From: Candidatus Saccharimonadota bacterium
GTDB lineage: Bacteria; Bacteroidota; Bacteroidia; Cytophagales; Amoebophilaceae
Direction: 5' to 3'
Assembly: GCF_003351905.1 (NCBI RefSeq)
Contig: NZ_CP022339.1
Location: 630,001-662,000 of the forward strand
Length of the DNA stretch: 32,000 nt
Shown here piece by piece: positions 426 to 12,860 of this stretch. Numbering within the stretch: the stretch's first letter is position 1; every line of letters begins with the position of its first letter. The notes beneath the pieces are model-generated. The model saw only the letters and a program-made list of their open reading frames with translations, made no database searches and was not told the DNA's origin. Position numbers and translations under genes: made by a program.

Positions 426-1637
426 ATGGAACATGGACGCATTTTTATATTGTGGTTACTCCTATTAAGTGGTTGCCATACGGACATTAAGCAGGATGTG
501 CATCCTGGGGATCCCTCTTTTGTTGCGGGTCCCATGTATCTTACGCATGCTTCTGGTGCTGCTGATTTTGATTCTTCTGTTGCTTCTGCTTTTATGACTG
601 CTGCGGCTGCTCGTGTGGATGCGGCTGATGCGGATGCGGCTGCTCGTGCTGCGGCTGCTCGTGCCAATACTGCTCTTGCGCGTGCTTTCCCTCTTGATGG
701 TGGTACGCCTGTTCGGGCTACTATTTCTGGGTCTGCTGTTTTTGCTTGTACTAATGCTGCCGCTGCTTATATGCGTGTTGCTGCATCTGCTGCTGCAGCA
801 GCAGATGCGTATCTAGTTGCTGCGCGTGCTGCGTATGATGTTGGCCATCCGGTTGCTTATGCCCATGCTTCTGGCTATGCTGATGCATATACTTGTACTT
901 CTGTTTCTGCTTTGACTGCTGCGGCGTCTTTTGATGCTGCTGCTAAGGCTGCTGCTGTTTCGCATGTGGTTGCTGCTAAGGCTGCTGTTGCTGTTTCGCA
1001 TGCCGGTGATCATGCTGCTGTTTTTGCTGCTGCTGCTAGGGCTGCTGCTACTAAGGCTGCTACCTATGCTACTTCTGTGGCTCGTTCTGCTAATTTGTCT
1101 ACTACAGTTGGCTGTATACGTATGGTTTCTGCTCATGTTGCTTCTATTGCTTCTGCTGCCCGTGCTGCTCATACGGCTCGTGTTGAGGCTGATTCTGCAA
1201 CTCATTCTGCAGATTGTGCTAGGGTTTATGCATATACTGCTCATGCTGCTGTTTCTGCTGCTGCTGCTATTTGTGCACATGCTGATGCTGTGTTTGCGAC
1301 TACTGATGCTGTATTTGCTTATGACCGTGTGGTTGAGGTTGCTGATGCACATATTAATAATGCACGTAAAATTGCTTCTATTAGGGTCCATAATGATACG
1401 GCTTCTGCTGCTTATGAGCGTGCCAGTTCTGCTTCTGTTGATGCTGCTACTGCTGCTGCTGGAGCTACTAAAGCAGCAGCAGCAGTGAGTCGTTTTGCTG
1501 CTGTAGCTGATGTTTCGTCTGTTGAGTCTTCTGTTTCGGATCTATTTGCTGCTGCTGCTCGTGCTGCTGCTGTTGTTGTTGACGCTATTCGTCTGCATGC
1601 TGCTACTGCTGCGAATGCTGTTGCTGCTGCCATATAA
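426..1637 (+). CDS. Alanine-rich predicted lipoprotein, unknown function (paralog 1)
   Basis: The N-terminus MEHGRIFILWLLLLSGC has a hydrophobic core and a canonical lipobox (L-S-G-C). The mature part is dominated by A with S/V/D/H/T/Y/R and has almost no K/E/I/N/L/P. Codons are overwhelmingly T-ending (gct, tct, gtt, gat, cat, act, tat, cgt). It is paralogous to 1906..2616, including the 5' leader. Confidence 0.7.
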   Translation: MEHGRIFILWLLLLSGCHTDIKQDVHPGDPSFVAGPMYLTHASGAADFDSSVASAFMTAAAARVDAADADAAARAAAARANTALARAFPLDGGTPVRATISGSAVFACTNAAAAYMRVAASAAAAADAYLVAARAAYDVGHPVAYAHASGYADAYTCTSVSALTAAASFDAAAKAAAVSHVVAAKAAVAVSHAGDHAAVFAAAARAAATKAATYATSVARSANLSTTVGCIRMVSAHVASIASAARAAHTARVEADSATHSADCARVYAYTAHAAVSAAAAICAHADAVFATTDAVFAYDRVVEVADAHINNARKIASIRVHNDTASAAYERASSASVDAATAAAGATKAAAAVSRFAAVADVSSVESSVSDLFAAAARAAAVVVDAIRLHAATAANAVAAAI

Positions 1638-2616: not shown

Positions 2617-2886
2617 CAATAGATTAATAATAGACCATATCCTTCAACCATCTATTATAATGGCCTCTTTTTGCATATATTTGCGCATGTATCTGATTCG
2701 CACATGACCTGTAGCGTTTTGAAAGAAGGCTATCCTTAGAGGGGAGGCGTACAAATGGTAGACTATTTATGACACAATCTATTTAGGCCCATTTGCTTTT
2801 AAAAAACCTTTTAGCTACCTTTCAGTTAATAGGAAGCGCAATTAGTTATTGAGCGTGACTGTCTACCAAAAGTAAATAGATTAAAT

Positions 2887-3129
2887 ATGCATTTATCTAT
2901 CATTGCGCCTAATCGTAGGCTTTTTAATGGAGAGGTGGATAGTGTCATGTTGCCAGGTGCACTTGGTCCATTTCAGGTGCTTTCTGATCATGCACCTACT
3001 TTAAGTAGTTTCATAGCAGGAAAGATCACTTATACAGTTGGGTCTACCTCATCTTCCCTTTCAGTAAAGGGTGGTTTTACCTCGGTAGCTAATAACCAGG
3101 TTAGGGTAGTTTGTGAGCCTAGCGTATAG
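2887..3129 (+). CDS. atpC: F0F1 ATP synthase epsilon subunit (short, beta-sandwich-only form)
   Basis: MHLSIIAPNRRLFNGEVDSVMLPGALGPFQVLSDHAPTLSSFIAGKITY matches the conserved AtpC N-terminal pattern (L.I.tP.. .f.G.v.sV.lPG..G.fgvL..HAP.i..l..G.i). The 80-aa length is typical of Bacteroidetes AtpC. Confidence 0.75.
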   Translation: MHLSIIAPNRRLFNGEVDSVMLPGALGPFQVLSDHAPTLSSFIAGKITYTVGSTSSSLSVKGGFTSVANNQVRVVCEPSV

Positions 3130-3481
3130 AAGGGTGTAGCCGCATAGCACGCAACTATTGACCATTCAAGCATGGGTCTTATAGCTCTGCTTTGCTTCTA
3201 AATGCACGAGCTTTTGGTTGTGCTTGGCTAACCGCTGCGTTTCCTTAAGGGGGCTTATAACTGGTATGGGTTACGACTGTTAAGCACAAAATGATAATCT
3301 TTGTATTTTTGCATAAAAAAGATCTAAAAATGTAATATATTTAAGCAATAAAGGGTTTTTGTTCATCTGAGCCGCTAGGTAAGCGGAGTAATGAGCCGAG
3401 TGCACCTGCTATATGGCACCTTTGTATACAATCGTTATGGCGCGTATGCCGCAAGTATCATGAATAATAAAGTGACCCAAC

Positions 3482-4042
3482 ATGTTGCATCATTGCACTA
3501 GTACTATATTATCTGAAGTAAACCAATACATTCAATCTAAAACGAATGTAAAGGGGCCAGCTATATCCCTGTCAATTTTAGGAAATTCCCAAATAGAAAG
3601 CAAATATTCCAAGGGAATTTTTATGAGGTTGGTAGATATTGCTTCAGTAGAACTGCGCAGCAACCCTACGCAATATGTGCCACAGGGGGATGGTTTTGTT
3701 TTACGTAAAGTACCAGAAGCATTTAGCCTTTATTTCTTATTTTCTACAGATTATAAGGCAGCCGACTTATTAAAAAATTTAGAATTACTTGCTTATGTGG
3801 CAGCATTTTTTCAACATAAGTCGCATTTTGATGTTGCTAACACCCCTGTTTTACAGGAGATTGGGATTGACAGTTTTTCAGTTGAGTTAGTAAAGATGGC
3901 GCCATCGGAGCGGTCCATGCTTTGGAAAAGTTTACATACGCCTTATAGTCCTTCTTTGCTCTATAAGGTAGGTCTTATATTTATAGGAGATGCTGCGATG
4001 GATTTAAAGGTAGTATCCGCATTTTCATCACGTGAGCGGTAA
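3482..4042 (+). CDS. CIS cap / tail-terminator-like protein (DUF4255, Afp16/Pvc16 N-terminal domain family)
   Basis: FMRLVDIASVELRSNPTQYVPQGDGFVLRKVPEAFSLYFLFS and SMLWKSLHTPYSPSLLYKVGLIFI line up with the DUF4255 signature as I recall it from Pvc16 (..LYDI.ENVELRSNEP....G......PPL.....YLVTA ... EFW.AL....RPSL...V). It lies in a same-strand block with the sheath and tube genes. Confidence 0.75.
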   Translation: MLHHCTSTILSEVNQYIQSKTNVKGPAISLSILGNSQIESKYSKGIFMRLVDIASVELRSNPTQYVPQGDGFVLRKVPEAFSLYFLFSTDYKAADLLKNLELLAYVAAFFQHKSHFDVANTPVLQEIGIDSFSVELVKMAPSERSMLWKSLHTPYSPSLLYKVGLIFIGDAAMDLKVVSAFSSRER

Positions 4043-4893
4043 TGGCATTTATAACAAAATTATTTCGTATAGTTATTTCAAATGGTTATTATAAATCTAA
4101 TAAGCCTCAGAATGACTTCGATATAGCGCCAACCCAGGCTACTACCTCTTGGATGGCCGCACGTAGGGTGCGTCTGTTAGGTCACCCAGATGGTATAGAG
4201 TTGATATGGCTTTCACAGGATTATGATCATCCGTTGGCGTTATTTAAAAAAAAGGCAGCGGGCATTACCCTTTCCTTTGTGGTGACATTAAAAAATAGCC
4301 AACTATTGAATCTTGCAGAATTAGAAGCAGGGTACCCAATCGGTCAAGTCTATTATTTGCATAATCGGCATACGGACCCTCATCTGCTACATAGCAAAGT
4401 CTCTATGGGTAAGTCGGATCTAGTAAAAATTCAAGATGTGCCTCATTACCCAGCCGGGTTAGGTTGGAATGTTTTTGCCATGATTGATATAGATCTTACC
4501 CGTTTTGTGCATGCTTTATCTGAGCAAAAAGATAGTGCCTTAGTCGAGCCTATTACCTATACCATTAAGATTCAAAATCGTGCTACCTTTTGGCGGTATT
4601 ATTTCGTAGATACCAACCAGCAGCTTGGTAAGGCGCTAAAGATTCTATCCAAAGGAGATGCCTCTTATTTTGGTGCAGTAAAGGCTTTGCCAGAACACCC
4701 CCATACCTATTGTGCAGAATCTACCATGCCCATGGAGCTTTGTGATCGATACGACCGTTCTTTTTCACTTTGCAAACTAGGCGGTGCAAAAGGCGAGACC
4801 ATATTATTAGAAAAATTGCCTTATCCTACCTATGACTCGCTCAAAAAGGATAAGGGGAAGAAACGCTATAGTGATATAGTTGTATATGTTTAG
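4042..4893 (+). CDS. Hypothetical protein, CIS-cluster associated (no family recognised)
   Basis: A 283-aa ORF with ordinary composition. Its ATG overlaps the TAA of the upstream cap-like gene (TAATG at 4040-4044), which implies translational coupling. It sits 45 nt upstream of the sheath gene. Confidence 0.6.
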   Translation: MAFITKLFRIVISNGYYKSNKPQNDFDIAPTQATTSWMAARRVRLLGHPDGIELIWLSQDYDHPLALFKKKAAGITLSFVVTLKNSQLLNLAELEAGYPIGQVYYLHNRHTDPHLLHSKVSMGKSDLVKIQDVPHYPAGLGWNVFAMIDIDLTRFVHALSEQKDSALVEPITYTIKIQNRATFWRYYFVDTNQQLGKALKILSKGDASYFGAVKALPEHPHTYCAESTMPMELCDRYDRSFSLCKLGGAKGETILLEKLPYPTYDSLKKDKGKKRYSDIVVYV

Positions 4894-4938
4894 TTTAAAC
4901 TTAATTTAACTTTTATATAATTCATAAAATCAAATAAA

Positions 4939-6426
4939 ATGGCTGAAAATTTAAAAACTCCCGGCGTGTACATCGTCGAGAAGGATACGGGTGCCAACGC
5001 CGTGGTTCAAGTATCAACCGCAGTTCCTGCTTTTATAGGCTTCACAGAAAGAGCTGAAATTAATGGAAAGTCGTTTCATATGAAACCTGTTCAGATTTCT
5101 TCGCTTTCTGAATTTGAGTTGTTTTTTGGTGGACCAGCAGTACCTGTCTATACCATTAAGGAGGTAACCAGTGGAGACAAAGATTTGGTGATGAATGGCA
5201 AGTCTTATGTCATGGAACAGAGTCTAAATTCTACATTTTATCTATATAATAGTTTAAAGCTATTTTTTGATAATGGTGGAGCAGATTGTTTTATTGTCTC
5301 TGTTGGTCAGTATGGTGACCCAAATGTACAGTTAGCAATTACACCAGATGTATTTAAACAAGGTATAGATGCCTTAGCTGGAGAGGAGGTGCCTACCATG
5401 TTGTTAATGCCAGATTCACTCTTATTAGACGAGGAAGATGCCTCTTACTATGCGGTGCAGACCTATGGACTGGCCCATTGTGGTAAGTATCTGAATAAAG
5501 TAGCATTATTTGATATATGGGGTGGTAATAAGGAATTATCTATCGAGGATAAGAACAAATATGTAGATAGGTTTCGTGAATATATTGGATTAGATAATTT
5601 GAGTTATGGTGCTGCCTATTATCCATGGGTTAAAACCAATATTATCCCATTGAATAGCATTGATTACAAAAACTTCGATTTAGAGTCGCTCAAAGGTGTA
5701 TTACAAGAAGAACACAAAACCATGTTGGCCAATCTAATCAGTGCTACTACAGAGAAAGAGAAAGTCTATTGGGATGCTGGGCTAAAGAATACCAGTAAGG
5801 AGTACAAATTACTGCGTAAAACCATTGCCGATCGGTTGAATATTCTTCCAGCTGCTCCGGCTATGGCTGGGTTGTATACTAGAACCGATAAAGCAAGAGG
5901 GGTATGGATTGCGCCGGCCAACCAAAACTTAAATTCTGTGGTAGAGCCCATGGTTAAGATTACCCATGAAGAACAAGAAGCACTGAACGTAGATGGCATT
6001 AGTGGCAAGTCGATCAATGCCATTCGGACCTTTAAAGGAGCCGGTGCAGCAGTCGTTTGGGGTGCCAGAACTTTGGCAGGAAATAGTCCAGAATGGCGGT
6101 ATATTAACGTTAGGAGGTTGTTTATCCTTATTGAGCAATCGATTAAAAATGCAGCTTTTTCCGTTGTCTTTAGGCCAAACGTTCCCGTTACCTGGGCAGT
6201 TGTACAGGGCATGATTTCCAACTTCTTAACCAACCTTTGGAGACAAGGTGCTTTGGTAGGGGCAAGTCCTGCAGAGGCATTTACCGTCCTTTGTGGATTA
6301 GGTGAGACCATGTCTCAGGATGATGTGAATGAAGGCATTATGCGCATTTCCGTAAAAGTGGCAGCGCCTAGACCAGCTGAGTTTATTGTGATCACATTTG
6401 AACAAAAAATGGGTGCAGATGGTTAA
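4939..6426 (+). CDS. Contractile sheath protein (phage tail sheath / Afp2-4 / TssBC-like)
   Basis: The N-terminus MAENLKTPGVYIVEKDTG..VSTAVPAFIGFTERA is the classic sheath start (TPGVYIEE...S.avaafvG). The C-terminal block GVWIAPAN..L..V......T..EQ..LN..G...INAIR.F.G.G..VWGARTL....EWRYINVRRLF..IE.SI is the tail-sheath C-terminal domain pattern. Confidence 0.95.
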   Translation: MAENLKTPGVYIVEKDTGANAVVQVSTAVPAFIGFTERAEINGKSFHMKPVQISSLSEFELFFGGPAVPVYTIKEVTSGDKDLVMNGKSYVMEQSLNSTFYLYNSLKLFFDNGGADCFIVSVGQYGDPNVQLAITPDVFKQGIDALAGEEVPTMLLMPDSLLLDEEDASYYAVQTYGLAHCGKYLNKVALFDIWGGNKELSIEDKNKYVDRFREYIGLDNLSYGAAYYPWVKTNIIPLNSIDYKNFDLESLKGVLQEEHKTMLANLISATTEKEKVYWDAGLKNTSKEYKLLRKTIADRLNILPAAPAMAGLYTRTDKARGVWIAPANQNLNSVVEPMVKITHEEQEALNVDGISGKSINAIRTFKGAGAAVVWGARTLAGNSPEWRYINVRRLFILIEQSIKNAAFSVVFRPNVPVTWAVVQGMISNFLTNLWRQGALVGASPAEAFTVLCGLGETMSQDDVNEGIMRISVKVAAPRPAEFIVITFEQKMGADG

Positions 6427-6443
6427 GGCACACACCTGTCTGT

Positions 6444-6469
6444 CTATAGGGGGTATTTTCCCCCTATGG
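6444..6469 (+). terminator. Strong stem-loop immediately after the sheath gene (partial terminator, attenuator or mRNA stabiliser)
   Basis: ataggggg (6446-6453) pairs perfectly with ccccctat (6460-6467) around the loop tatttt. The stem is extendable by c6444-g6469 and t6445-g6468. It is followed by a T-rich sequence (ggctatttgcttataatttt). Confidence 0.4.
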
Positions 6470-6511
6470 CTATTTGCTTATAATTTTAAAAACATTTAAA
6501 ATAAAATAATC

Positions 6512-6976
6512 ATGGCTAATAATTTGTTAGTACCTTCTATCGTCCATTTTAATTTGGGCGCTTCAAAGGTTAGTATAACGGATTACCATATAGCAATTAC
6601 TATAGAAAATGGATCCGAATATATTAGATCAGTTAATGCGCAAGGTAAGTCCACTTATGCTATATCTAAAGGAGAGCAAATTGCACAAAAGGCTGATATT
6701 AAAGTTTCTATACTTAAAGCGCCAGATGGGGGATTTGATGATGATATTAAAAAATTAGAAAAAAACTTAGATGCCGCAAAAGAAAATGATCCTAAAAAAT
6801 ATGTGGAAGATATGCTGTTTAGTTTTGCAACCAATGATGATAAGCCATTTGCACATATACAATTCCGGGGATATGTTTCTCACATAGAACCAGACGTAGA
6901 TCCTGAGACTCAAATACCGTTAGCGGTAGCTGAACTTTCTGTTTATGATCCAATGAGTTTTGTAATTAAAGAATAG
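6512..6976 (+). CDS. Small CIS-cluster protein, possible divergent tube/Hcp-fold protein
   Basis: It is 154 aa, directly downstream of the sheath gene on the same strand, and the size is typical of tube proteins. The alternating beta-strand-like pattern and the FAHIQFRGYV..I motif loosely resemble Bacteroidetes Hcp/TssD. I cannot see a firm family signature. Confidence 0.45.
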   Translation: MANNLLVPSIVHFNLGASKVSITDYHIAITIENGSEYIRSVNAQGKSTYAISKGEQIAQKADIKVSILKAPDGGFDDDIKKLEKNLDAAKENDPKKYVEDMLFSFATNDDKPFAHIQFRGYVSHIEPDVDPETQIPLAVAELSVYDPMSFVIKE

Positions 6977-7043
6977 ATTACTGATCCATTATTGAGTTTT
7001 TTTAAAATTAAGTAGCTTAACTAGAATTTGATAAAAAAATATT

Positions 7044-7487
7044 ATGCAAAGAGTAACTATTGATTATAAACACTTTAATAAAGCAGGTTTTGATGGTAAA
7101 ACTTGTAGTGTTTTGGGTATGGGTATACCAAATCAAAAAATATCGACCTCAGCAATCGTATATGATACGGCAGCTTCTGCACCACTTCATTATAATCAAC
7201 GCAGTGCTCCAAAGATTGTAACGTTCACTGTAGACTTCTTGCCTTATATAACTAGTAAACATTTATTATCAAAAGCAGATAGCTTAGTTAAAGAAGTGTT
7301 TGAGAGTAAATATAATCCAGAACCATTGACCTATTGTATACATAAAAAAGATGGTGCAATAGATACAAAAAAAACTGTAAATGACGTTATCATACAAAAC
7401 GTAAAGTTATTTTTGGATAGGAAAAACGAAGCTACAGGTGAAAAAGGGTATGTTCGTATACGTTTTACTTTACAAGGTTTAGTATAA
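7044..7487 (+). CDS. Small CIS-cluster protein, tube-sized, family not recognised
   Basis: A 147-aa ORF between two tube-like genes on the same strand, with normal coding composition and no overlapping competitor ORF. Confidence 0.45.
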   Translation: MQRVTIDYKHFNKAGFDGKTCSVLGMGIPNQKISTSAIVYDTAASAPLHYNQRSAPKIVTFTVDFLPYITSKHLLSKADSLVKEVFESKYNPEPLTYCIHKKDGAIDTKKTVNDVIIQNVKLFLDRKNEATGEKGYVRIRFTLQGLV

Positions 7488-7535
7488 CCAGATAAAAAGT
7501 AATCACATGATGTTTATAACCTTGTTCTGATATTT

Positions 7536-7985
7536 ATGGTTGATTTTAATTTAGTCCATACCTATTCTTTTCAAGTAGAAGTACAGAAAGTAACAGATAA
7601 TAGTTCCCGAGAATATTTCTATAAGGTAGAAGGGTTAAATAATGCTTTGCGTATGGAGCCTTATCTACCTGGAGGGGCGAATAGACCTTATTATAGGGCT
7701 AATGCATGTGAAACGACTGATTTAATCTTGACGAGGCCCTTAGTAGAGGGGAAAACCAAAATAACCGTTTGGTGCGAAAAGGCCATTGACACAGGATTTT
7801 TTGAACTTACGCGAGCCCATATTTTTGTGCTTAGTAGGGAAGGTAAAATTCTGGCACGATGGGATATAGAAGATGTCTATCCAAAGGGTATAGCCATTAC
7901 ACCATTCCAGTTAAATGGTCCAACAGAATTTGGGGTAGGAGAAACCATTACACTGGGCTATTCTAGGTTGGTGCGTGCCAAATGA
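7536..7985 (+). CDS. CIS inner tube protein (phage T4 gp19-like / Afp1-Afp5 family)
   Basis: YSFQVEV....FYKVEGLNNALRMEPYLPGGANRPYYRANACETTDLILTRPLVEG...WCEKAID....AHIFVLSREGKILARWDIEDVYPKGIAITPFQLNG...VGETITLGYS follows the tail-tube consensus (F.V.I....F..VSGL..E.ev.EYreGG.n...hKlPG...y.nlTLkRG......l..W........I.LlD..g.....W....AwP.k.....L.a.....v.iE.lel.he). Confidence 0.85.
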   Translation: MVDFNLVHTYSFQVEVQKVTDNSSREYFYKVEGLNNALRMEPYLPGGANRPYYRANACETTDLILTRPLVEGKTKITVWCEKAIDTGFFELTRAHIFVLSREGKILARWDIEDVYPKGIAITPFQLNGPTEFGVGETITLGYSRLVRAK

Positions 7986-8157
7986 TAGCAGGAATAGACC
8001 TTTTTGCAACCTATTTGTGGTGTACAATGGTGAGCAGTGACGTTAGTCACCGGCATACCAAATCTATTCGGAGGAGCATAGACAAGCTGTACCGCCAAAT
8101 CATCATGAGACAGTGGCTTCGAAAGAGGTCTAGTGTAGCAAATAAATTGTATGGATT

Positions 8158-8328
8158 ATGGCAGTTAAAATTAATGAATTCGTGATTCAGTTTAAGGTGC
8201 ATGAAGCCAGTCAACCAGTAGAAAACACGACCAATAAGCCAGTTGGTTACTTACCGGATAGGACGGAGCAGCAAGATTTGGTAAGGGAGGTGGTTGACGC
8301 ATTATTAGAAGATCGAGAAGCAAGGTAA
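8158..8328 (+). CDS. Small Afp6/Pvc6-like protein (DUF5908-like). This ORF is not in the supplied track.
   Basis: I translated it by hand: ATG at 8158 to TAA at 8326-8328 gives the 56-aa MAVKINEFVIQFKVHEASQPVENTTNKPVGYLPDRTEQQDLVREVVDALLEDREAR. The start M.(I/V)(K/E)I.E(L/F).I...V, the polar middle and the acidic helical end ...L(E/K)..(K/R)ER resemble the small protein found between tube and Afp7 genes in eCIS loci. Its position matches, ending 14 nt before the Afp7-like gene. Confidence 0.55.
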   Translation: MAVKINEFVIQFKVHEASQPVENTTNKPVGYLPDRTEQQDLVREVVDALLEDREAR

Positions 8329-8342
8329 AACAACCTCCAGGT

Positions 8343-9665
8343 ATGAGTAACGTTAGTAAACTAGTTATTAAAGCATGTAGGGACAATAAGTTTTCTTCTT
8401 TTATAGGGGAATTTATTACATCTATTAATCCAGAGAACTTGGTTATTAAAAGTGCTGTATCCTACCATATTCCTGGAGGAACTCCTCCTAGTGCCCATTT
8501 GCTTAAATACCGTGGATCCCCTCCTAAGTTGCTTTCTTTTAGTCTTTTATTTGACAATACAGGGATTATGCCTGGTAGCAATACCATTGCTGTGATGGAG
8601 CAAGTCAAGCAACTACAAGATGTTGCCTATAGCGTCCAGAAAAAAAATAATGCCCCGAATTACATTCGTGTAATCTGGGGGCAGATTGATTTTAAAGGAA
8701 GATTGGTGGATCTAGATATGATCTATTCTATGTTTCAAGTAGATGGTACGCTGGTTAGAGCCGAGGCACATATCGCTGTATTGGAGGAGCTGGTCCCTGT
8801 AGGGAGAGGGGAATCTGCTGCAGGTGTAGATAGCGACTATGCAAAAGCATCGGGTGCAAGTGCAACCTCGAAGGGTTCATCTAGTCAAAGGGGTGGCCCC
8901 CCGCCCTCTTATCAGGAGGCCACTGCGCCCCCTCCTTCTTATCAGGCAGCTGTTGCTGCACCGCATCAGGAGGCCTTTGCACCTACCCCTAATGGGATGA
9001 ATGGCGCCTACAGTGGTGCACCACCGGGTGCCTATGATGGAGGGGCTGACCAGATTTATCATGGATCTAATGATGCTGGTGGAGCGGTTTATGCCTCGTC
9101 CAGTGTGGCTACGGCTCAGTCTGGCAAGCCTATTTCCAGTGTAAAGCCGGTCTCCTCTAGCCATGGTGGCTATAGTAATGATGCTGATATTGGCCGTTCT
9201 AGTAACGGCTTACAAGGTGGTGTGGCGGGCAATGGCCCTGGAGGGAGTGGAGGAGGAGTTGGCGGGGGAGGTCATGGACCAGGTAGTGGGAAGGCTGGCA
9301 AGGCTACTACTGGAATAGGTAGCCCTGAAGGTAAAGCTGGTACAAGTGGTAGTAGCCATGGATCAGGCAGTTCTCCGACTGGATCTGCCAAAAGCAATAC
9401 GGCCTCAGGGAGTGGTAAAGTCAAAGGAAAAGATAGTAACTTTAAGGCGGGTAGCATGGTAGCTGCTGGTGCAGCTGGTAGTGCGGCAGTAGCAGCTGCT
9501 GCTGCAACTGGAGCAGATAGTTTGCGTAAAATTGATCTAAAGGGTAAGGGCCTCAATTTTTTAAGAAATAAAGTGAGTTGGCGGGATAGGCTCAAAATGA
9601 TTGTTAAATTTGTTAAAAAACAAGCAGGAAAAGCATATAATGCCGGAAAAAAGATGGTACAGTAA
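8343..9665 (+). CDS. CIS tube-initiator-like protein (Afp7/Pvc7 N-terminal tube domain) fused to a long low-complexity tail, with no LysM domain
   Basis: The N-terminal ~155 aa (KLVIKACRDNKFSSFIGEFITSINPENL...SFSLLFDNTGIMPG...NYIRVIWGQIDFKGRLVDLDMIYSMFQVDGTLVRAEAHIAV) match the CIS tube protein N-domain pattern (KL.I.A....F...vgeF.vm.NPE.ys......y....f.LvFDgTGv.p......P.fl.l.WG.l.FkcrL.sl.i.YtLF..dGtPlRA.a.v.f). Residues ~160-400 are G/S/A/P-rich. The C-terminus is an Ala/Gly hydrophobic stretch followed by a Lys/Arg-rich helix. Confidence 0.8.
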   Translation: MSNVSKLVIKACRDNKFSSFIGEFITSINPENLVIKSAVSYHIPGGTPPSAHLLKYRGSPPKLLSFSLLFDNTGIMPGSNTIAVMEQVKQLQDVAYSVQKKNNAPNYIRVIWGQIDFKGRLVDLDMIYSMFQVDGTLVRAEAHIAVLEELVPVGRGESAAGVDSDYAKASGASATSKGSSSQRGGPPPSYQEATAPPPSYQAAVAAPHQEAFAPTPNGMNGAYSGAPPGAYDGGADQIYHGSNDAGGAVYASSSVATAQSGKPISSVKPVSSSHGGYSNDADIGRSSNGLQGGVAGNGPGGSGGGVGGGGHGPGSGKAGKATTGIGSPEGKAGTSGSSHGSGSSPTGSAKSNTASGSGKVKGKDSNFKAGSMVAAGAAGSAAVAAAAATGADSLRKIDLKGKGLNFLRNKVSWRDRLKMIVKFVKKQAGKAYNAGKKMVQ

Positions 9666-9801: not shown

Positions 9802-11259
9802 ATGCGTTATATGAAATCTGTTGTTGTAGCTGTTTTTTTAACAGCTTGTGGGCATTTTATTGCTTATGGTAACACCAAACTTAAATCCAGTGTCATTGAG
9901 CATGCCAAGCGTGCGGTAGTTTCTCTTGATGTGCAGGCAGCCCTTACGGCCTATACTGCGCCTGGGAAGTTGCATGGAAATGGGGTAGTAATAGATAAAA
10001 AAATAGGCTATATTTTAACTTCTGCTACTACGGTTGGTCCCGCTATAGTAGCAGACTATACGGTTGGTTTTTTTAATGGTGTAGAGGCTAAAGCGAAAGT
10101 AGTTTATTATGATCCTTGGTTGGACTATGCGATTCTAAAGGTAGATCCATTGGTGCTTCCTAAAGAAATCCAGGCGATCAAGTTAAGTAGTAAGGAACCA
10201 TTGCTAGGCCAGTCTATTTTTACGATTGGTAAGAAAAAAAATACGCCTGCTGTAGTATATGCTGGAACCATAGATGCTACCAATTGTAGTGTGCAATGGA
10301 CCATGCCCCAACATTTTATTCGTGTGAGTATGCCCAGTAAGACTCATGCAGTTGGTTCTTTAATTTTCAATGAGGCTGGGGAGGGTATTGCTTTAAATTG
10401 TGCGGGTTCAGATACCGCGAATATTGGGTTGCATCTAGGCTATGTGCGTCAGGCGCTAGCTGCCTTAAAGCAAAACAAATTACCAGTTAGAAAGCATATC
10501 GGTGCGTTACTAGTTACTTATTCCATAGATGATGCCATCCGTTATGATCATCTTTCGCAAGCTTCACAAAAAGTGTATACTGCAAAATTTCCAAATGCAG
10601 AAAATAAAATCTTGCAAGTAGATAGTATACTTAAAGGTACACCAGCAGCGGGTAAACTTTTGCCTGGGGATTTAATTTGGGCGCTTAATGGTCAGTTGAT
10701 TGGCCCTAATCTCATAGATTTTGATATAGCGCTGGATAAATCACCAAAAGATTCAGTTTTGTTAACTGTTTTTCGAAATGGTTCCTTTCATGAGGTTGCT
10801 ATTCCTTGTTATAATTTACACAACCATCGGATCACTAAAATGGTTCAATTTGGCGGTGCTACTTTTTTTGAGACAGATGATTTTTGTAGTACGCTGGGTG
10901 GTGTTTCCCCTAAAACTTTGGCTGCTTGTATTGCAGAAACCAATACCATTTTCAAAGTACCTGCTTCGCATCAAAATTATTTCAATATTTTAGGCATGCA
11001 ATTTTTAGCTATTAATGGTAAGCCTGTGCAAACATTGGATGCGTTGATCACACTGATTCCAGAATTGGTTCATCAAAAATATTTTACAGTTTCCTATGTT
11101 AATCACTTGGTGCCATTAAATCATGGCATGTGGTCATCCTATGCGCATAGTTCCTATAAAGTGAATGTAGCATATGACTCCAACTTAGTATTGCCCAAAG
11201 TTTGGACATGGGATTCCATGCAGCTGGAATGGAAAGGTGAGGCAATTGTTTTGCAATAG
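9802..11259 (+). CDS. Secreted trypsin-fold/PDZ protein of the HtrA type, predicted catalytically dead (pseudoprotease), probable lipoprotein
   Basis: It aligns end to end with the 11409..12860 product and has the same 485-aa length. The His site reads GYILTSATTVGP (10021-10035) against GYILTNQHVIGD. The Ser site reads KTHAVGSLIFN (10345-10362) against KGGSSGSPIFN. The Asp context DPWLDYAILKV is kept. The N-terminus VVVAVFLTAC has a lipobox (L-T-A-C). Confidence 0.8.
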   Translation: MRYMKSVVVAVFLTACGHFIAYGNTKLKSSVIEHAKRAVVSLDVQAALTAYTAPGKLHGNGVVIDKKIGYILTSATTVGPAIVADYTVGFFNGVEAKAKVVYYDPWLDYAILKVDPLVLPKEIQAIKLSSKEPLLGQSIFTIGKKKNTPAVVYAGTIDATNCSVQWTMPQHFIRVSMPSKTHAVGSLIFNEAGEGIALNCAGSDTANIGLHLGYVRQALAALKQNKLPVRKHIGALLVTYSIDDAIRYDHLSQASQKVYTAKFPNAENKILQVDSILKGTPAAGKLLPGDLIWALNGQLIGPNLIDFDIALDKSPKDSVLLTVFRNGSFHEVAIPCYNLHNHRITKMVQFGGATFFETDDFCSTLGGVSPKTLAACIAETNTIFKVPASHQNYFNILGMQFLAINGKPVQTLDALITLIPELVHQKYFTVSYVNHLVPLNHGMWSSYAHSSYKVNVAYDSNLVLPKVWTWDSMQLEWKGEAIVLQ

Positions 11260-11408
11260 GGCTGGAGTTGCTTGCGTTATCCCATCCTATATGGAAGTTT
11301 TTAGAAGTGTGAAAGCCAAAAATCCATATTTAATCCTATCATCTTTTATGCTTTTTTTGCCTTAATGATTTGATCAGGTTGTTCTAATCGCTATTTACTA
11401 CAGTGCGT

Positions 11409-12860
11409 ATGAAAATAAATAGGTTAAAATCTAAATGCTGGATTCTATTTTTTACCCTTTTGCTGCATACGCCTATGCTTTTAGCCAAAGAGGTCTTCTC
11501 TGAAAAGGTAATTGAGCATGCTAAAAAGTCAGTAGTAACCATTGATGTAAATGCTGCTTTTGCAGCTTATGGAGAAGGTAGCAAGTGGAGCGGAACCGGT
11601 TGCGTGGTAGATAAGCAGCATGGCTACATCTTAACCAACCAACATGTAATAGGCGATGCTGTAGTGGGTAGTTATAAAGCAACCTTTTTTAATGGCATCC
11701 AACAAGAAGCCCATCTGATCTATTACGATCCATGGTTAGACTATGGATTTGTAAAAGTTTCCCCTACCGTTATTCCAAAAGAGGTTACGGAAACTACCTT
11801 TAGTAGCCATAATCCAGTTATAGATCAGCCTATTTTTATCGTTGGCAATAATGAAGGCTATAGCTTTTCTTTACATACAGGAGTGGTGGCAGATTTGTAT
11901 GGGGTTACAGGTGCCATGCCTCAACAATCGATTAAACTGAGTTTAAATACTAAGGGTGGGTCAAGTGGATCGCCCATTTTTAACAAAAATGGGCAGGCTG
12001 TAGGGCTTAATTATGCTGGCAATCGAACATTCGGGTTTGCTATCCATCCTGAATATATTCGGTATGCTTTGTCAGCGATTCGGCAAGGTAACTCCCCAAT
12101 TAGGAAACAAGTGGGCGTAATCACCAAATCTACACCTATTAAAGATGTAGTCCAGTATGATGGGTTATCCACCCAGCAGCAATACATTAAAACATTTCCT
12201 AATGGCGCTACTTCTGTTATTACAGTCCATCATGTGTTAGTTGGTAGTCCTGCGGCTGCCTTACTCTTTCCTGGAGATGTGATTTGGGCCATTAATGGTC
12301 ACCCAATAGGGCCTAATTTGGTTGCTTTCTATATGGCTATGAACAAAACTACGAAAGATTCTGTTCTATTAACCATTTTTAGGATGGGCCAGTGGCATGA
12401 TATCAAAATAGGGCTTTATGATCTCGAGGCGCATAAAATCACAAAAATGGTCCATTTTGGAGGGGCGCTTTTTTTTGAAATGGATGATTATTGTGCCAAA
12501 CTAAATCATTTATCTCCTAAAAGTTTGACTTTTGTGCATGTAGATGCAAACCATATGTTTCATAATGTTGCACCCAATAGAGTCGGTGAATTTAGGTTGA
12601 AAGTCTTATCTTTTAATAAAAAATCGGTTGCTGACCTTCAAGCATTAGTGGCAGTGATACCATCGTTAATCTCTAAAAAATACTTTACTATAGAATATAC
12701 TGATTTGTCTCCTTGTCATCTATTTGGTTCTGCGTTACACTTAGGTCCTAGGCCATCAAGGGCCTATGTAGCGTATGATACCCATCTTTCTCAGCCTAGA
12801 TCATTTATTTGGGATGAAGCAAGTCATCAATGGATTAGTTCACCTATTGGTATAAAATGA
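11409..12860 (+). CDS. Secreted HtrA-family (S1C-like) serine protease with C-terminal PDZ-like region, catalytic triad intact
   Basis: TNQHV (His codon 11643-11645), DPWLDYGFVKV (Asp) and GGSSGSP (Ser codon 11964-11966) are all present. The signal peptide is KCWILFFTLLLHTPMLLA/KE. The track starts at GTG 11403, but I prefer ATG 11409. Confidence 0.85.
   Translation: MKINRLKSKCWILFFTLLLHTPMLLAKEVFSEKVIEHAKKSVVTIDVNAAFAAYGEGSKWSGTGCVVDKQHGYILTNQHVIGDAVVGSYKATFFNGIQQEAHLIYYDPWLDYGFVKVSPTVIPKEVTETTFSSHNPVIDQPIFIVGNNEGYSFSLHTGVVADLYGVTGAMPQQSIKLSLNTKGGSSGSPIFNKNGQAVGLNYAGNRTFGFAIHPEYIRYALSAIRQGNSPIRKQVGVITKSTPIKDVVQYDGLSTQQQYIKTFPNGATSVITVHHVLVGSPAAALLFPGDVIWAINGHPIGPNLVAFYMAMNKTTKDSVLLTIFRMGQWHDIKIGLYDLEAHKITKMVHFGGALFFEMDDYCAKLNHLSPKSLTFVHVDANHMFHNVAPNRVGEFRLKVLSFNKKSVADLQALVAVIPSLISKKYFTIEYTDLSPCHLFGSALHLGPRPSRAYVAYDTHLSQPRSFIWDEASHQWISSPIGIK

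What the first reader, a model, noticed from the sequence alone, without database searches (positions are those of the whole stretch)
3482..9665. Contractile injection system sheath-tube module with no spike, baseplate, tape-measure or ATPase genes nearby
Eight same-strand genes form a CIS half-locus: DUF4255 cap-like, a 283-aa unknown, sheath, three tube-sized proteins, Afp6-like and Afp7-like. The block is bounded upstream by atpC and downstream by two Sec-type proteases, then by opposite-strand housekeeping genes. No VgrG/gp27-gp5 spike, PAAR, gp25, gp6/gp7 baseplate wedge, tape measure or AAA+ ATPase is visible anywhere in the 32 kb. In the Serratia Afp and Photorhabdus PVC reference loci all of these are contiguous. 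Afp-like CIS (T6SS subtype iv) have been reported in Amoebophilus and Cardinium, so the machine class is known. This split arrangement and its unrecognised members are what deserve a closer look.
Basis: partly seen in the sequence, partly recalled or inferred. Interest (0 to 1): 0.8.

Follow-up and report, generated by a model that had tools for sequence, protein, structure and literature searches.

The report
Cardinium injection-system sheath–tube gene block
This is the sheath, tube and cap gene block of the phage-tail-like injection machine (T6SSiv) of the insect symbiont Cardinium; its remaining genes lie elsewhere in the genome, as was already published for Cardinium in 2012, so the finding is real but ordinary.

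Summary
Eight intact same-strand genes at 3482-9665 encode cap, cap adaptor, sheath, two orphan ~150-aa proteins, a gp19-type tube protein, a 56-aa DUF5908 plug and an Afp7-like tube initiator. No spike, baseplate, tape-measure or ATPase gene is in the 32 kb.

The window comes from a Cardinium strain. Its sheath is 99% identical to Cardinium sp. TP and 77% to Amoebophilus Aasi_1074. The block is the ortholog of CAHE_0456-0463 and Aasi_1072-1079.

The split is known. Penz et al. 2012 reported 16 Afp-like genes in five regions of Cardinium cEper1. In strain TP, I found VgrG-PAAR-gp25-Afp12-like genes on a different contig, between housekeeping genes.

The "283-aa unknown" is the cap adaptor (Alg16B/Cis16b family). 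The Afp6-like gene is at 8158-8328, not the 67-aa ORF at 7982-8185.

The 154- and 147-aa proteins occupy the slot of the main tube gene. They match no known family by sequence, and their fold is unresolved.

One thing is specific to this strain. The 154/147-aa gene pair (6422-7492) differs by 20% in DNA from strain TP, against 6.5% in the flanks. That looks like a swapped cassette.

Novelty: already known. Interest: low.

The parts
3482..4042 (+). Cap protein (186 aa). It is the short Alg16A/Afp16-N-terminal-domain type and the ortholog of Aasi_1072 / CAHE_0456.
   Evidence: Pfam Pvc16_N, E 2.2e-17. 35% identical to the Amoebophilus ortholog and 92% to Cardinium sp. TP. BLASTP to the Algoriphagus NG3 cap gives E 2e-12.
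4042..4893 (+). Cap adaptor (283 aa) of the Alg16B/Cis16b family; ortholog of Aasi_1073 / CAHE_0457. Its start codon overlaps the cap gene's stop by one base.
   Evidence: The single sequence has no Pfam hit. A 14-sequence family profile (A4) hits PDB 9r9n_C 'SalCis16b - cap' (E 8.8e-8, profile positions 5-273 of 284), 7adz_1A 'cap adaptor protein' of AlgoCIS (E 2.6e-7) and 7b5i_AB of the Anabaena CIS cap complex (E 1.5e-6). The same profile hits the gene in the same position in Algoriphagus NG3 (49.6 bits).
4939..6426 (+). Contractile sheath protein (495 aa); ortholog of Aasi_1074 / CAHE_0458.
   Evidence: Pfam Phage_sheath_1C and Phage_sheath_1. 99% identical to Cardinium sp. TP, 95-98% to other Cardinium and 77% to Aasi_1074. 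dN/dS is 0.02-0.04.
6444..6469 (+). Stable RNA hairpin (10-bp stem, 6 G-C pairs) 18 nt after the sheath stop codon. It is a candidate attenuator or mRNA-stabilising element.
   Evidence: Terminator-like scan. Fold z-score is -3.5. A strong hairpin sits at the same place, with different sequence, in Cardinium L003, L010 and L009, in the Cardinium-related MAG L011 and in Amoebophilus L001 (z -6.5). It is not seen in L004, L023 or L025.
6512..6976 (+). 154-aa protein of the Aasi_1075 / CAHE_0459 family. It is the first of two orphan proteins in the slot where related systems carry the main tube gene.
   Evidence: Orthologs are present in all Cardinium and Amoebophilus loci. Only 24 clusters in 1.84 billion representatives match. 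There are no Pfam, PHROG, NCBIfam or PDB matches even with a 29-sequence profile. hhalign against the gp19 family is negative. The AF2 model is unusable, pLDDT 36.
7044..7487 (+). 147-aa protein of the Aasi_1076 / CAHE_0460 family, the second orphan protein in the tube slot.
   Evidence: Orthologs. No family or PDB match. hhalign against the gp19 family gives probability 1.3%. AF2 pLDDT 36.
7536..7985 (+). gp19-family tube protein (149 aa), closest to the Alg5/Afp5 position (tube-initiator ring); ortholog of Aasi_1077 / CAHE_0461.
   Evidence: Pfam Phage_T4_gp19, E 4e-12. PDB hits include AlgoCIS 7aeb_Y at E 3e-6. The family profile scores 51.9 bits against the second Algoriphagus tube gene and 22.8 bits against the first.
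8158..8328 (+). 56-aa DUF5908 protein, the Afp6/Alg6 'plug'; ortholog of Aasi_1078 / CAHE_0462.
   Evidence: Frame translation and comparison with L003 and L001. Pfam DUF5908, 27.9 bits against a cut-off of 27.7. Aasi_1078 is named as the Alg6 plug homologue in PMC8894135.
8343..9665 (+). Afp7/Alg7-like tube initiator (440 aa). It has an N-terminal CIS_tube domain (residues 4-148) and a ~290-aa Gly/Ser/Ala/Pro-rich tail ending in a basic helix-like segment. The LysM domain of Alg7 is not detectable. Ortholog of Aasi_1079 / CAHE_0463.
   Evidence: Pfam CIS_tube, E 1.6e-31. 35% identical to the Algoriphagus Alg7-position protein over the tube domain. Tails are compared across 19 loci.
6422..7492 (.). 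Divergent two-gene cassette (the 154- and 147-aa genes plus their intergenic DNA) relative to the nearest genome.
   Evidence: Mismatch to Cardinium sp. TP is 20.5% inside against 6.5% outside. Maximum chi-square places the breakpoints at 6422 and 7492, which are the sheath stop and the 147-aa gene stop. Fisher p = 5e-35. Amino-acid identity is 72% and 71%, against 92-99% for the cap, cap adaptor and sheath and 88-96% for the two downstream genes.

Best explanation
The block is the cap, sheath and tube module of the single, dispersed T6SSiv (Afp-like contractile injection system) of a Cardinium endosymbiont. It is orthologous to Aasi_1072-1079 of Amoebophilus asiaticus and CAHE_0456-0463 of Cardinium hertigii cEper1.

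In the ancestor the genes for spike (VgrG), PAAR, gp25 and the baseplate wedge followed directly. Genome rearrangement in the Cardinium lineage cut the cluster right after the Afp7-like gene, and the parts now assemble in trans.

Inferred mechanism, by homology with the solved AlgoCIS, Afp and PVC structures:
- The plug (8158-8328), the Afp7-like ring (8343-9665) and the gp19/Alg5-like ring (7536-7985) seed the inner tube on a VgrG spike encoded elsewhere.
- The tube and the sheath (4939-6426) polymerise together.
- The cap (3482-4042) closes the tube, and the cap adaptor (4042-4893) ties the cap to the last sheath ring.
- Sheath contraction drives the tube and spike out of the bacterium into the host cell.
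- The 154- and 147-aa proteins most probably are, or contribute to, the inner tube.

What is shown here: gene identities, orthology, intactness, purifying selection, and the separate location of the spike module in the nearest genome. What is inferred: assembly in trans, the injection function, and the role of the two orphan proteins.
For: Gene order is identical to Amoebophilus, where VgrG, PAAR, gp25, an 831-aa protein and CIS_TMP follow contiguously. An ENA metagenome relative with 71% sheath identity has atpC upstream, as here, and still has VgrG-PAAR-gp25-823aa-TMP downstream.

All 10 Cardinium loci and the four Cardinium-proximal MAG loci keep atpC plus the module wherever the locus extends that far. 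None has a VgrG downstream of it.

In Cardinium sp. TP, VgrG-PAAR-gp25-825aa lies on contig JANAVR010000009, between a tRNA synthetase and a sodium:solute symporter. There is no second sheath or tube gene there. The sheath module is on contig JANAVR010000001.

All eight ORFs have ortholog-like lengths and no frameshifts. Sheath dN/dS is 0.02-0.04 and the other genes are at 0.07-0.4.

Literature:
- Five regions and 16 genes in cEper1 (PMC3486910).
- Transcripts of all 15 genes counted for the system, with the sheath gene ranked 10th-11th among the most highly expressed (PMC5698495).
- T6SSiv homologs reported in all sequenced Cardinium, and thought to form the microfilament-like arrays typical of the genus (PMC12342168).
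Against: The rest of this strain's genome was not available. The presence of spike and baseplate genes is therefore shown only for its nearest sequenced relative and for cEper1.

No canonical Afp1/Alg1-type main tube gene is detectable. The tube role of the 154/147-aa proteins rests on position, size and secondary-structure pattern only.

In this strain those two genes carry changes at 8 of 60 and 6 of 61 sites that are invariant in the ten other Cardinium-clade loci compared. That could mean relaxed constraint.

No dedicated Afp15-type ATPase is known for Cardinium. The published candidate is an FtsH homolog.
Confidence: 0.9

Rival explanations
1. The block is a decaying remnant or partial duplicate of a CIS locus that no longer contributes to a working machine.
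For: It is cut off from the spike and baseplate genes. In this strain the 154/147-aa genes are unusually divergent, with dN about 0.17 against 0.03-0.04 between other strains. The rough dN/dS on the window branch is about 0.6-1.4, estimated from three-taxon distances.
Against: All eight ORFs are intact and of ortholog length. The sheath is under very strong purifying selection, dN/dS 0.03. The same eight-gene block is conserved wherever the locus extends that far in the 10 Cardinium and four Cardinium-related loci. It is transcribed at moderate to high level in cEper1. The spike locus of the nearest genome holds no second sheath or tube set.
Confidence: 0.04
2. The sheath-tube-cap module makes an autonomous cytoplasmic filament, a structural 'microfilament' array, that works without a spike or baseplate and does not inject anything.
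For: Cardinium is defined by conspicuous parallel filament arrays. No substrate of the system is known. The module is transcriptionally separate from the baseplate genes.
Against: The plug, the Alg5-like ring and the Afp7-like ring are baseplate-hub parts that contact the spike in AlgoCIS, and they are kept here. VgrG, PAAR, gp25 and wedge genes are retained in Cardinium genomes and are transcribed in cEper1. The Amoebophilus homolog was reported as a functional contractile system (cited).
Confidence: 0.04
3. The block is part of a prophage tail or of an extracellular, lysis-released eCIS (Afp/PVC/AlgoCIS-like), not a cell-anchored T6SSiv.
For: All recognisable proteins belong to families shared with eCIS. 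AlgoCIS, of the same clade Ib, is extracellular.
Against: No capsid, terminase, lysis or integrase gene is in the window. The genes are chromosomal, vertically conserved and syntenic across the family. The organism is an obligate intracellular symbiont. The closest characterised homolog, at 77% sheath identity, is the membrane-anchored T6SSiv of Amoebophilus.
Confidence: 0.02

Closest known systems
Cardinium hertigii cEper1 Afp-like / T6SSiv genes CAHE_0456-0463 (Penz et al. 2012, PMC3486910)
   Same: Same genus, the same eight genes in the same order, and the same separation from the VgrG/PAAR/gp25/Afp12-like block (CAHE_0760-0763), the baseplate-J/fibre pair (CAHE_0036-0037), the Afp14-like gene (CAHE_0118) and the FtsH-like ATPase (CAHE_0409).
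   Different: This is a different strain. Cardinium hertigii strains cEhis1 and cEina3, used here as stand-ins because cEper1 itself was not fetched, have about 95% sheath identity but only 69-71% for the 154/147-aa proteins. In this strain the 154/147-aa gene pair is a divergent cassette.
Amoebophilus asiaticus T6SSiv, Aasi_1072-1083 (Böck et al. 2017, as cited)
   Same: The eight genes are orthologous and collinear. The two orphan ~150-aa proteins sit in the same place, between the sheath and the gp19 tube gene. Both have a DUF5908 plug and an Afp7-like protein with a long low-complexity tail.
   Different: In Amoebophilus the spike, PAAR, gp25, wedge and tape-measure genes follow directly. 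Here the cluster stops after the Afp7-like gene. The Amoebophilus Afp7-like tail still shows a LysM-like stretch and a hydrophobic segment. In Cardinium only a short 'DSLRK' remnant and a basic C-terminus remain.
AlgoCIS of Algoriphagus machipongonensis (clade Ib eCIS; Xu et al. 2022, PMC8894135; PDB 7adz, 7aeb)
   Same: It has the short single-domain cap, a separate cap adaptor, sheath, Alg5-type tube ring, Alg6 plug and Alg7 CIS_tube initiator in the same order.
   Different: AlgoCIS-type loci have a canonical gp19-family main tube gene (Alg1) directly after the sheath. Here two sequence-orphan proteins occupy that slot. AlgoCIS is extracellular, contiguous, and has an adjacent AAA ATPase. 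Its Alg7 carries LysM.
Serratia Afp / Photorhabdus PVC (clade Ia eCIS)
   Same: Same machine class. The sheath, Afp5-type tube, Afp6, Afp7 and the Afp16 N-terminal domain are homologous.
   Different: Afp and PVC are contiguous and mobile-element-borne, with three sheath paralogs, a two-domain cap, no separate cap adaptor, and toxin cargo genes. None of that applies here.

Membership tests
T6SSiv / clade Ib contractile injection system (Amoebophilus-Cardinium type) | Contractile sheath protein of the phage-sheath family, closely related to Aasi_1074 | tested here: met
   Pfam Phage_sheath_1C and Phage_sheath_1. 77% identical to Aasi_1074 over the full length.
T6SSiv / clade Ib contractile injection system (Amoebophilus-Cardinium type) | Collinear orthologs of Aasi_1072-1079 (cap, 1073, sheath, 1075, 1076, gp19 tube, DUF5908, CIS_tube) | tested here: met
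   tblastn and gene tables show all eight genes in the same order.
T6SSiv / clade Ib contractile injection system (Amoebophilus-Cardinium type) | Separate cap adaptor (Alg16B/Cis16b) next to a short single-domain cap | tested here: met
   Profile A4 against the PDB: 9r9n_C E 8.8e-8, 7adz_1A E 2.6e-7. The cap is 186 aa with Pvc16_N only.
T6SSiv / clade Ib contractile injection system (Amoebophilus-Cardinium type) | Inner tube protein of the gp19/Hcp fold | tested here: inconclusive
   One gp19-family protein is present (7536-7985), but it groups with the Alg5 initiator position. The two proteins in the main-tube slot have no detectable similarity to any tube family. Their AF2 models failed.
T6SSiv / clade Ib contractile injection system (Amoebophilus-Cardinium type) | Spike (VgrG), PAAR, gp25 and wedge proteins encoded in the same genome | tested here: inconclusive
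   They are absent from the window. They are present on another contig in the nearest genome, Cardinium sp. TP, and in cEper1. The genome of this strain itself could not be searched.
T6SSiv / clade Ib contractile injection system (Amoebophilus-Cardinium type) | Intracellular, membrane-anchored arrays that contract and act on the host membrane | not testable with these tools
   This needs cryo-ET. The literature reports such arrays for Amoebophilus and filament arrays for Cardinium.
Extracellular CIS of the Afp/PVC type (clade Ia) | One contiguous cassette, Afp1-16, with tape measure, AAA ATPase and toxin cargo | tested here: not met
   Only the equivalents of Afp16, the sheath, Afp5, Afp6 and Afp7 are present. 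No Afp8-15 equivalents or toxins are in the 32 kb.

The most novel reading that the evidence does not exclude
In the T6SSiv lineage the canonical main tube gene has been replaced by a pair of sequence-orphan ~150-aa proteins (the Aasi_1075 and Aasi_1076 families). They may form an unconventional, possibly two-component, inner tube or tube-associated cargo. In this strain exactly that two-gene cassette (6422-7492) has been exchanged by recombination for a far more divergent allele from an unsampled Cardinium lineage. That would suggest that the part of the machine that enters the host is swapped or diversified between co-infecting symbionts.
Probability: 0.2. Interest if true: 0.5.

Novelty: already known. 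Interest (0 to 1): 0.2.

Why it matters
This machine is the only specialised host-directed secretion device known in all Cardinium; some strains also have a predicted type I system. Cardinium manipulates arthropod reproduction, so the machine is the likely route for its still-unknown effectors.

The locus itself adds nothing new to that picture, because the dispersed layout and the gene set are published. Three points could be of use to specialists:
- Two formerly 'n.d.' genes (the Aasi_1073 and Aasi_1078 families) can be named cap adaptor and plug in Cardinium.
- The two proteins in the tube slot remain orphans by sequence.
- Those two genes behave as an exchangeable cassette in this strain.

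Tried and rejected
**The 67-aa ORF at 7982-8185.** It has no homolog. The conserved DUF5908 gene lies in another frame at 8158-8328.

**Assigning the 154/147-aa proteins to a tube family.** All of the following were negative or unusable:
- Single-sequence and profile searches of the PDB.
- Pfam on 29 family members, PHROGs and NCBIfam.
- hhalign against the gp19 family and against each other.
- hmmsearch against the Algoriphagus Alg1- and Alg5-position proteins.
- A concatenated homolog search meant to build deep alignments, which returned only two proteins.
- The two resulting AF2 models, which had pLDDT 36.
- Foldseek on those models, which gave nothing significant: best E 0.05 and TM up to 0.38. 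Tail-tube proteins are frequent among the top hits, but I do not count this as evidence.
- A metagenome scan for more relatives of the 147-aa protein, which added only nine loci.

**A functional link between the two downstream proteases and the module.** I rejected this. Neither protease is detected in the loci of Cardinium sp. TP, Tipula, Oedothorax and cBcalN2. Both carry signal peptides, so they are probably periplasmic.

**The PPSY (WW-ligand-like) motifs in the Afp7-like tail as a conserved host-targeting signal.** I rejected this. They occur only in this strain and in TP.

**Promoter scans.** Sigma-70-type sites are no more frequent than in shuffled sequence. The Bacteroidetes -33/-7 pattern gave no hit near the module.

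**An exact-sequence look-up of the window's sheath.** It found no record, so the source genome is not in that collection. Böck et al. 2017 could not be read.


Full report
**What is in the window.** ORF listing and Pfam scans give this map of the + strand:

| Coordinates | Product |
|---|---|
| 2887-3129 | atpC |
| 3482-4042 | Pvc16_N/DUF4255 cap, 186 aa |
| 4042-4893 | 283-aa protein |
| 4939-6426 | sheath, 495 aa |
| 6512-6976 | 154-aa protein |
| 7044-7487 | 147-aa protein |
| 7536-7985 | Phage_T4_gp19 tube protein, 149 aa |
| 8158-8328 | DUF5908 protein, 56 aa |
| 8343-9665 | 440-aa protein with an N-terminal CIS_tube domain |
| 9802-11259, 11403-12860 | two HtrA-like trypsin/PDZ proteins with signal peptides |

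Opposite-strand tatD, a metallophosphoesterase and ogt follow. The rest of the window holds an LD-carboxypeptidase, a beta-lactamase-family fragment, thyA, 23S and 5S rRNA, a leucine-rich-repeat protein, unknowns, tsaE, a MutS-domain protein and topA. tblastn with Amoebophilus VgrG, PAAR, gp25, Aasi_1083 and tape-measure proteins finds nothing in the window. One correction: the Afp6-like gene is the 56-aa ORF at 8158-8328, not the 67-aa ORF at 7982-8185.

**Whose genome it is.** The sheath is 99% identical to that of Candidatus Cardinium sp. TP. It is 98% identical to the Cardinium of Nabis limbatus, 95% to several Cardinium hertigii strains and 77% to Aasi_1074 of Amoebophilus asiaticus. The exact protein is not on record. 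The window therefore comes from an unsampled Cardinium strain close to TP.

**The split is real, ancestral to Cardinium, and published.**
- In Amoebophilus the same eight genes are followed directly by VgrG, PAAR, gp25, an 831-aa protein and a CIS_TMP protein.
- A metagenomic relative with 71% sheath identity has atpC upstream, as here, and still has the spike, baseplate and tape-measure genes downstream.
- All ten Cardinium loci and four Cardinium-proximal MAG loci keep atpC plus the module wherever the locus extends that far. None has a VgrG after the Afp7-like gene.
- The downstream neighbour varies. The two proteases are present in some strains, and neither is detected in the loci of TP, Tipula, Oedothorax and cBcalN2.

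The ancestral cluster was therefore cut right after the Afp7-like gene, at the base of the Cardinium clade.

In Cardinium sp. TP, VgrG-PAAR-gp25-825aa lies on a different contig, between a tRNA synthetase and a sodium:solute symporter. No sheath or tube genes are there. This argues against a second complete locus.

Penz et al. [quoted passage not shown] Their Table S5 lists CAHE_0456-0463 as the counterpart of Aasi_1072-1079. Mann et al. [quoted passage not shown] Recent papers state that all sequenced Cardinium carry T6SSiv homologs, thought to form the filament arrays typical of the genus.

**The 'unrecognised members'.**

*The 283-aa protein.* A profile of its family matches the Salmonella 'SalCis16b' cap protein (E 8.8e-8, nearly full length). 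It also matches the AlgoCIS cap adaptor Alg16B (E 2.6e-7) and a cap-complex chain of the Anabaena system (E 1.5e-6). In AlgoCIS this protein links the short cap to the last sheath ring and is needed for correct assembly.

*The DUF5908 protein.* It is the Alg6/Afp6 'plug'. [quoted passage not shown]

*The 149-aa gp19 protein.* It scores best against the Alg5-position gene of Algoriphagus. It is therefore more likely the initiator ring than the bulk tube.

*The 154- and 147-aa proteins.* They lie where AlgoCIS-type loci have the canonical Alg1 tube gene. They show no similarity to any Pfam, PHROG, NCBIfam or PDB entry, to the gp19 family, or to each other, even with profiles. Their family is small: 24 clusters among 1.84 billion representatives for the 154-aa protein. 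My structure predictions failed for lack of alignment depth. A tube role is inferred from position, size and a β-α-β secondary-structure pattern only. In Amoebophilus both orthologs are co-regulated with the other T6SSiv genes.

**State of the genes.** All eight ORFs are intact and of ortholog length. Between strains the sheath has dN/dS 0.02-0.04 and the other genes 0.05-0.4. The block is not a decaying duplicate.

**A strain-specific oddity.** Against Cardinium sp. TP, DNA identity is 91-99% across most of 2800-6462 and 88-95% across most of 7503-9183. It is only 76-85% from 6463 to 7503.
- Maximum chi-square puts the breakpoints at 6422 and 7492. These are the sheath stop and the 147-aa gene stop. 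Mismatch is 20.5% inside and 6.5% outside (Fisher p = 5e-35).
- The two proteins are 71-72% identical to those of TP. The same proteins are 85-95% identical among four other clade-A strains.
- The window differs at 8 of 60 and 6 of 61 sites that are invariant in the ten other Cardinium-clade loci compared.
- The intergenic DNA is also divergent and the boundaries are sharp. I therefore favour replacement of the two-gene cassette by recombination with an unsampled lineage over local acceleration.
- An assembly chimera of co-infecting strains cannot be excluded.

**Mechanism and verdict.** The block supplies the distal cap module, the sheath, the probable tube and the tube-initiator hub of one dispersed T6SSiv. 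The spike and baseplate come from other loci, and the machine assembles in trans. This is already known biology for Cardinium, so the novelty class is 'already known' and interest is low. The open point is the nature of the two orphan tube-slot proteins and their cassette-like exchange.

Noticed in passing
window 6422-7492: The two-gene cassette (154- and 147-aa genes) is 20.5% divergent in DNA from Cardinium sp. TP, while its flanks are 6.5% divergent. The breakpoints fall at the sheath stop and the 147-aa gene stop. This looks like recombinational replacement from an unsampled lineage, or an assembly chimera.
   Followed up: yes
window 6444-6469; also L001, L003, L009, L010, L011 just after the sheath stop: A strong RNA hairpin directly after the sheath gene is conserved in position but not in sequence from Cardinium to Amoebophilus (z down to -6.5). 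It may attenuate read-through or stabilise the sheath message. In Amoebophilus RNA-seq counts the sheath is about 5-fold above the next three genes, not length-normalised.
   Followed up: partly
window 9802-11259 versus 11403-12860: The two HtrA-like proteins are 41% identical paralogs. The first has lost the catalytic His (TSATTV instead of TNQHV) and Ser (HAVGSL instead of GSSGSP), so it is probably a pseudoprotease. Its N-terminus has a lipobox-like LTAC. The pair is present in the loci of the Nabis, cEhis1 and cEina3 strains and in metagenome contig L026, cBtQ1 keeps the second protease and only a fragment of the first, and neither is detected in the TP, Tipula, Oedothorax and cBcalN2 loci.
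   Followed up: partly
window 8343-9665 (residues ~150-440): The Afp7-like protein has a ~290-aa Gly/Ser/Ala/Pro-rich tail with two PPSY motifs (residues 187 and 197) and a basic C-terminus. The motifs occur only here and, once, in strain TP. Amoebophilus-type orthologs keep a LysM-like stretch plus a hydrophobic segment that Cardinium has largely lost.
   Followed up: partly
window 426-1637 and 1906-2616: Two very alanine-rich ORFs (403 and 236 aa) share a lipoprotein-like N-terminus (MEH..LWLL.LSGC) and have no Pfam match. The DNA here has a strong T-over-A skew (AT skew -0.28 to -0.38). Only the N-terminal ~30 residues find a match in strain TP.
   Followed up: no
window 18044-21136: 23S and 5S rRNA genes are present with no 16S rRNA and no tRNA gene nearby. 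thyA is the upstream neighbour, so the rRNA operon is split.
   Followed up: no
window 21280-23271: A 663-aa protein is made almost entirely of RNI-type leucine-rich repeats (LRR_6, E 6e-77), in a stretch of higher G+C (0.43-0.47). It is a eukaryote-like candidate effector.
   Followed up: no
window 23826-25235, 25715-26026, 26059-26646: This is a small family of unknowns. The 469- and 195-aa proteins are 34% identical over 186 residues. The 103-aa ORF contains, after ~30 extra residues, the signal-peptide-like stretch (GR.YINILVLIGITQLMQC) with which the 469-aa protein begins. It may be a duplicated and partly broken gene.
   Followed up: no
window 27258-29429 (- strand): A 723-aa protein has only MutS domains III and V and a hydrophobic N-terminus. 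It resembles the MutS-domain proteins CAHE_0017 and CAHE_0267 that Mann et al. 2017 flagged as candidate host-interaction factors.
   Followed up: no
L023 (ENA scaffold_489) and L025 (ENA k141_463915): Other uncultured relatives show different stages of break-up. L023 (sheath 63% identical) keeps only the sheath-to-Afp7-like genes between housekeeping genes, with no cap upstream and no spike downstream. L025 (71%) is contiguous through the tape measure but has no cap-adaptor gene between cap and sheath.
   Followed up: partly
window 16214-16885 (- strand): A beta-lactamase-family ORF of 223 aa matches only profile positions 80-250 of 329. It is probably a truncated gene.
   Followed up: no
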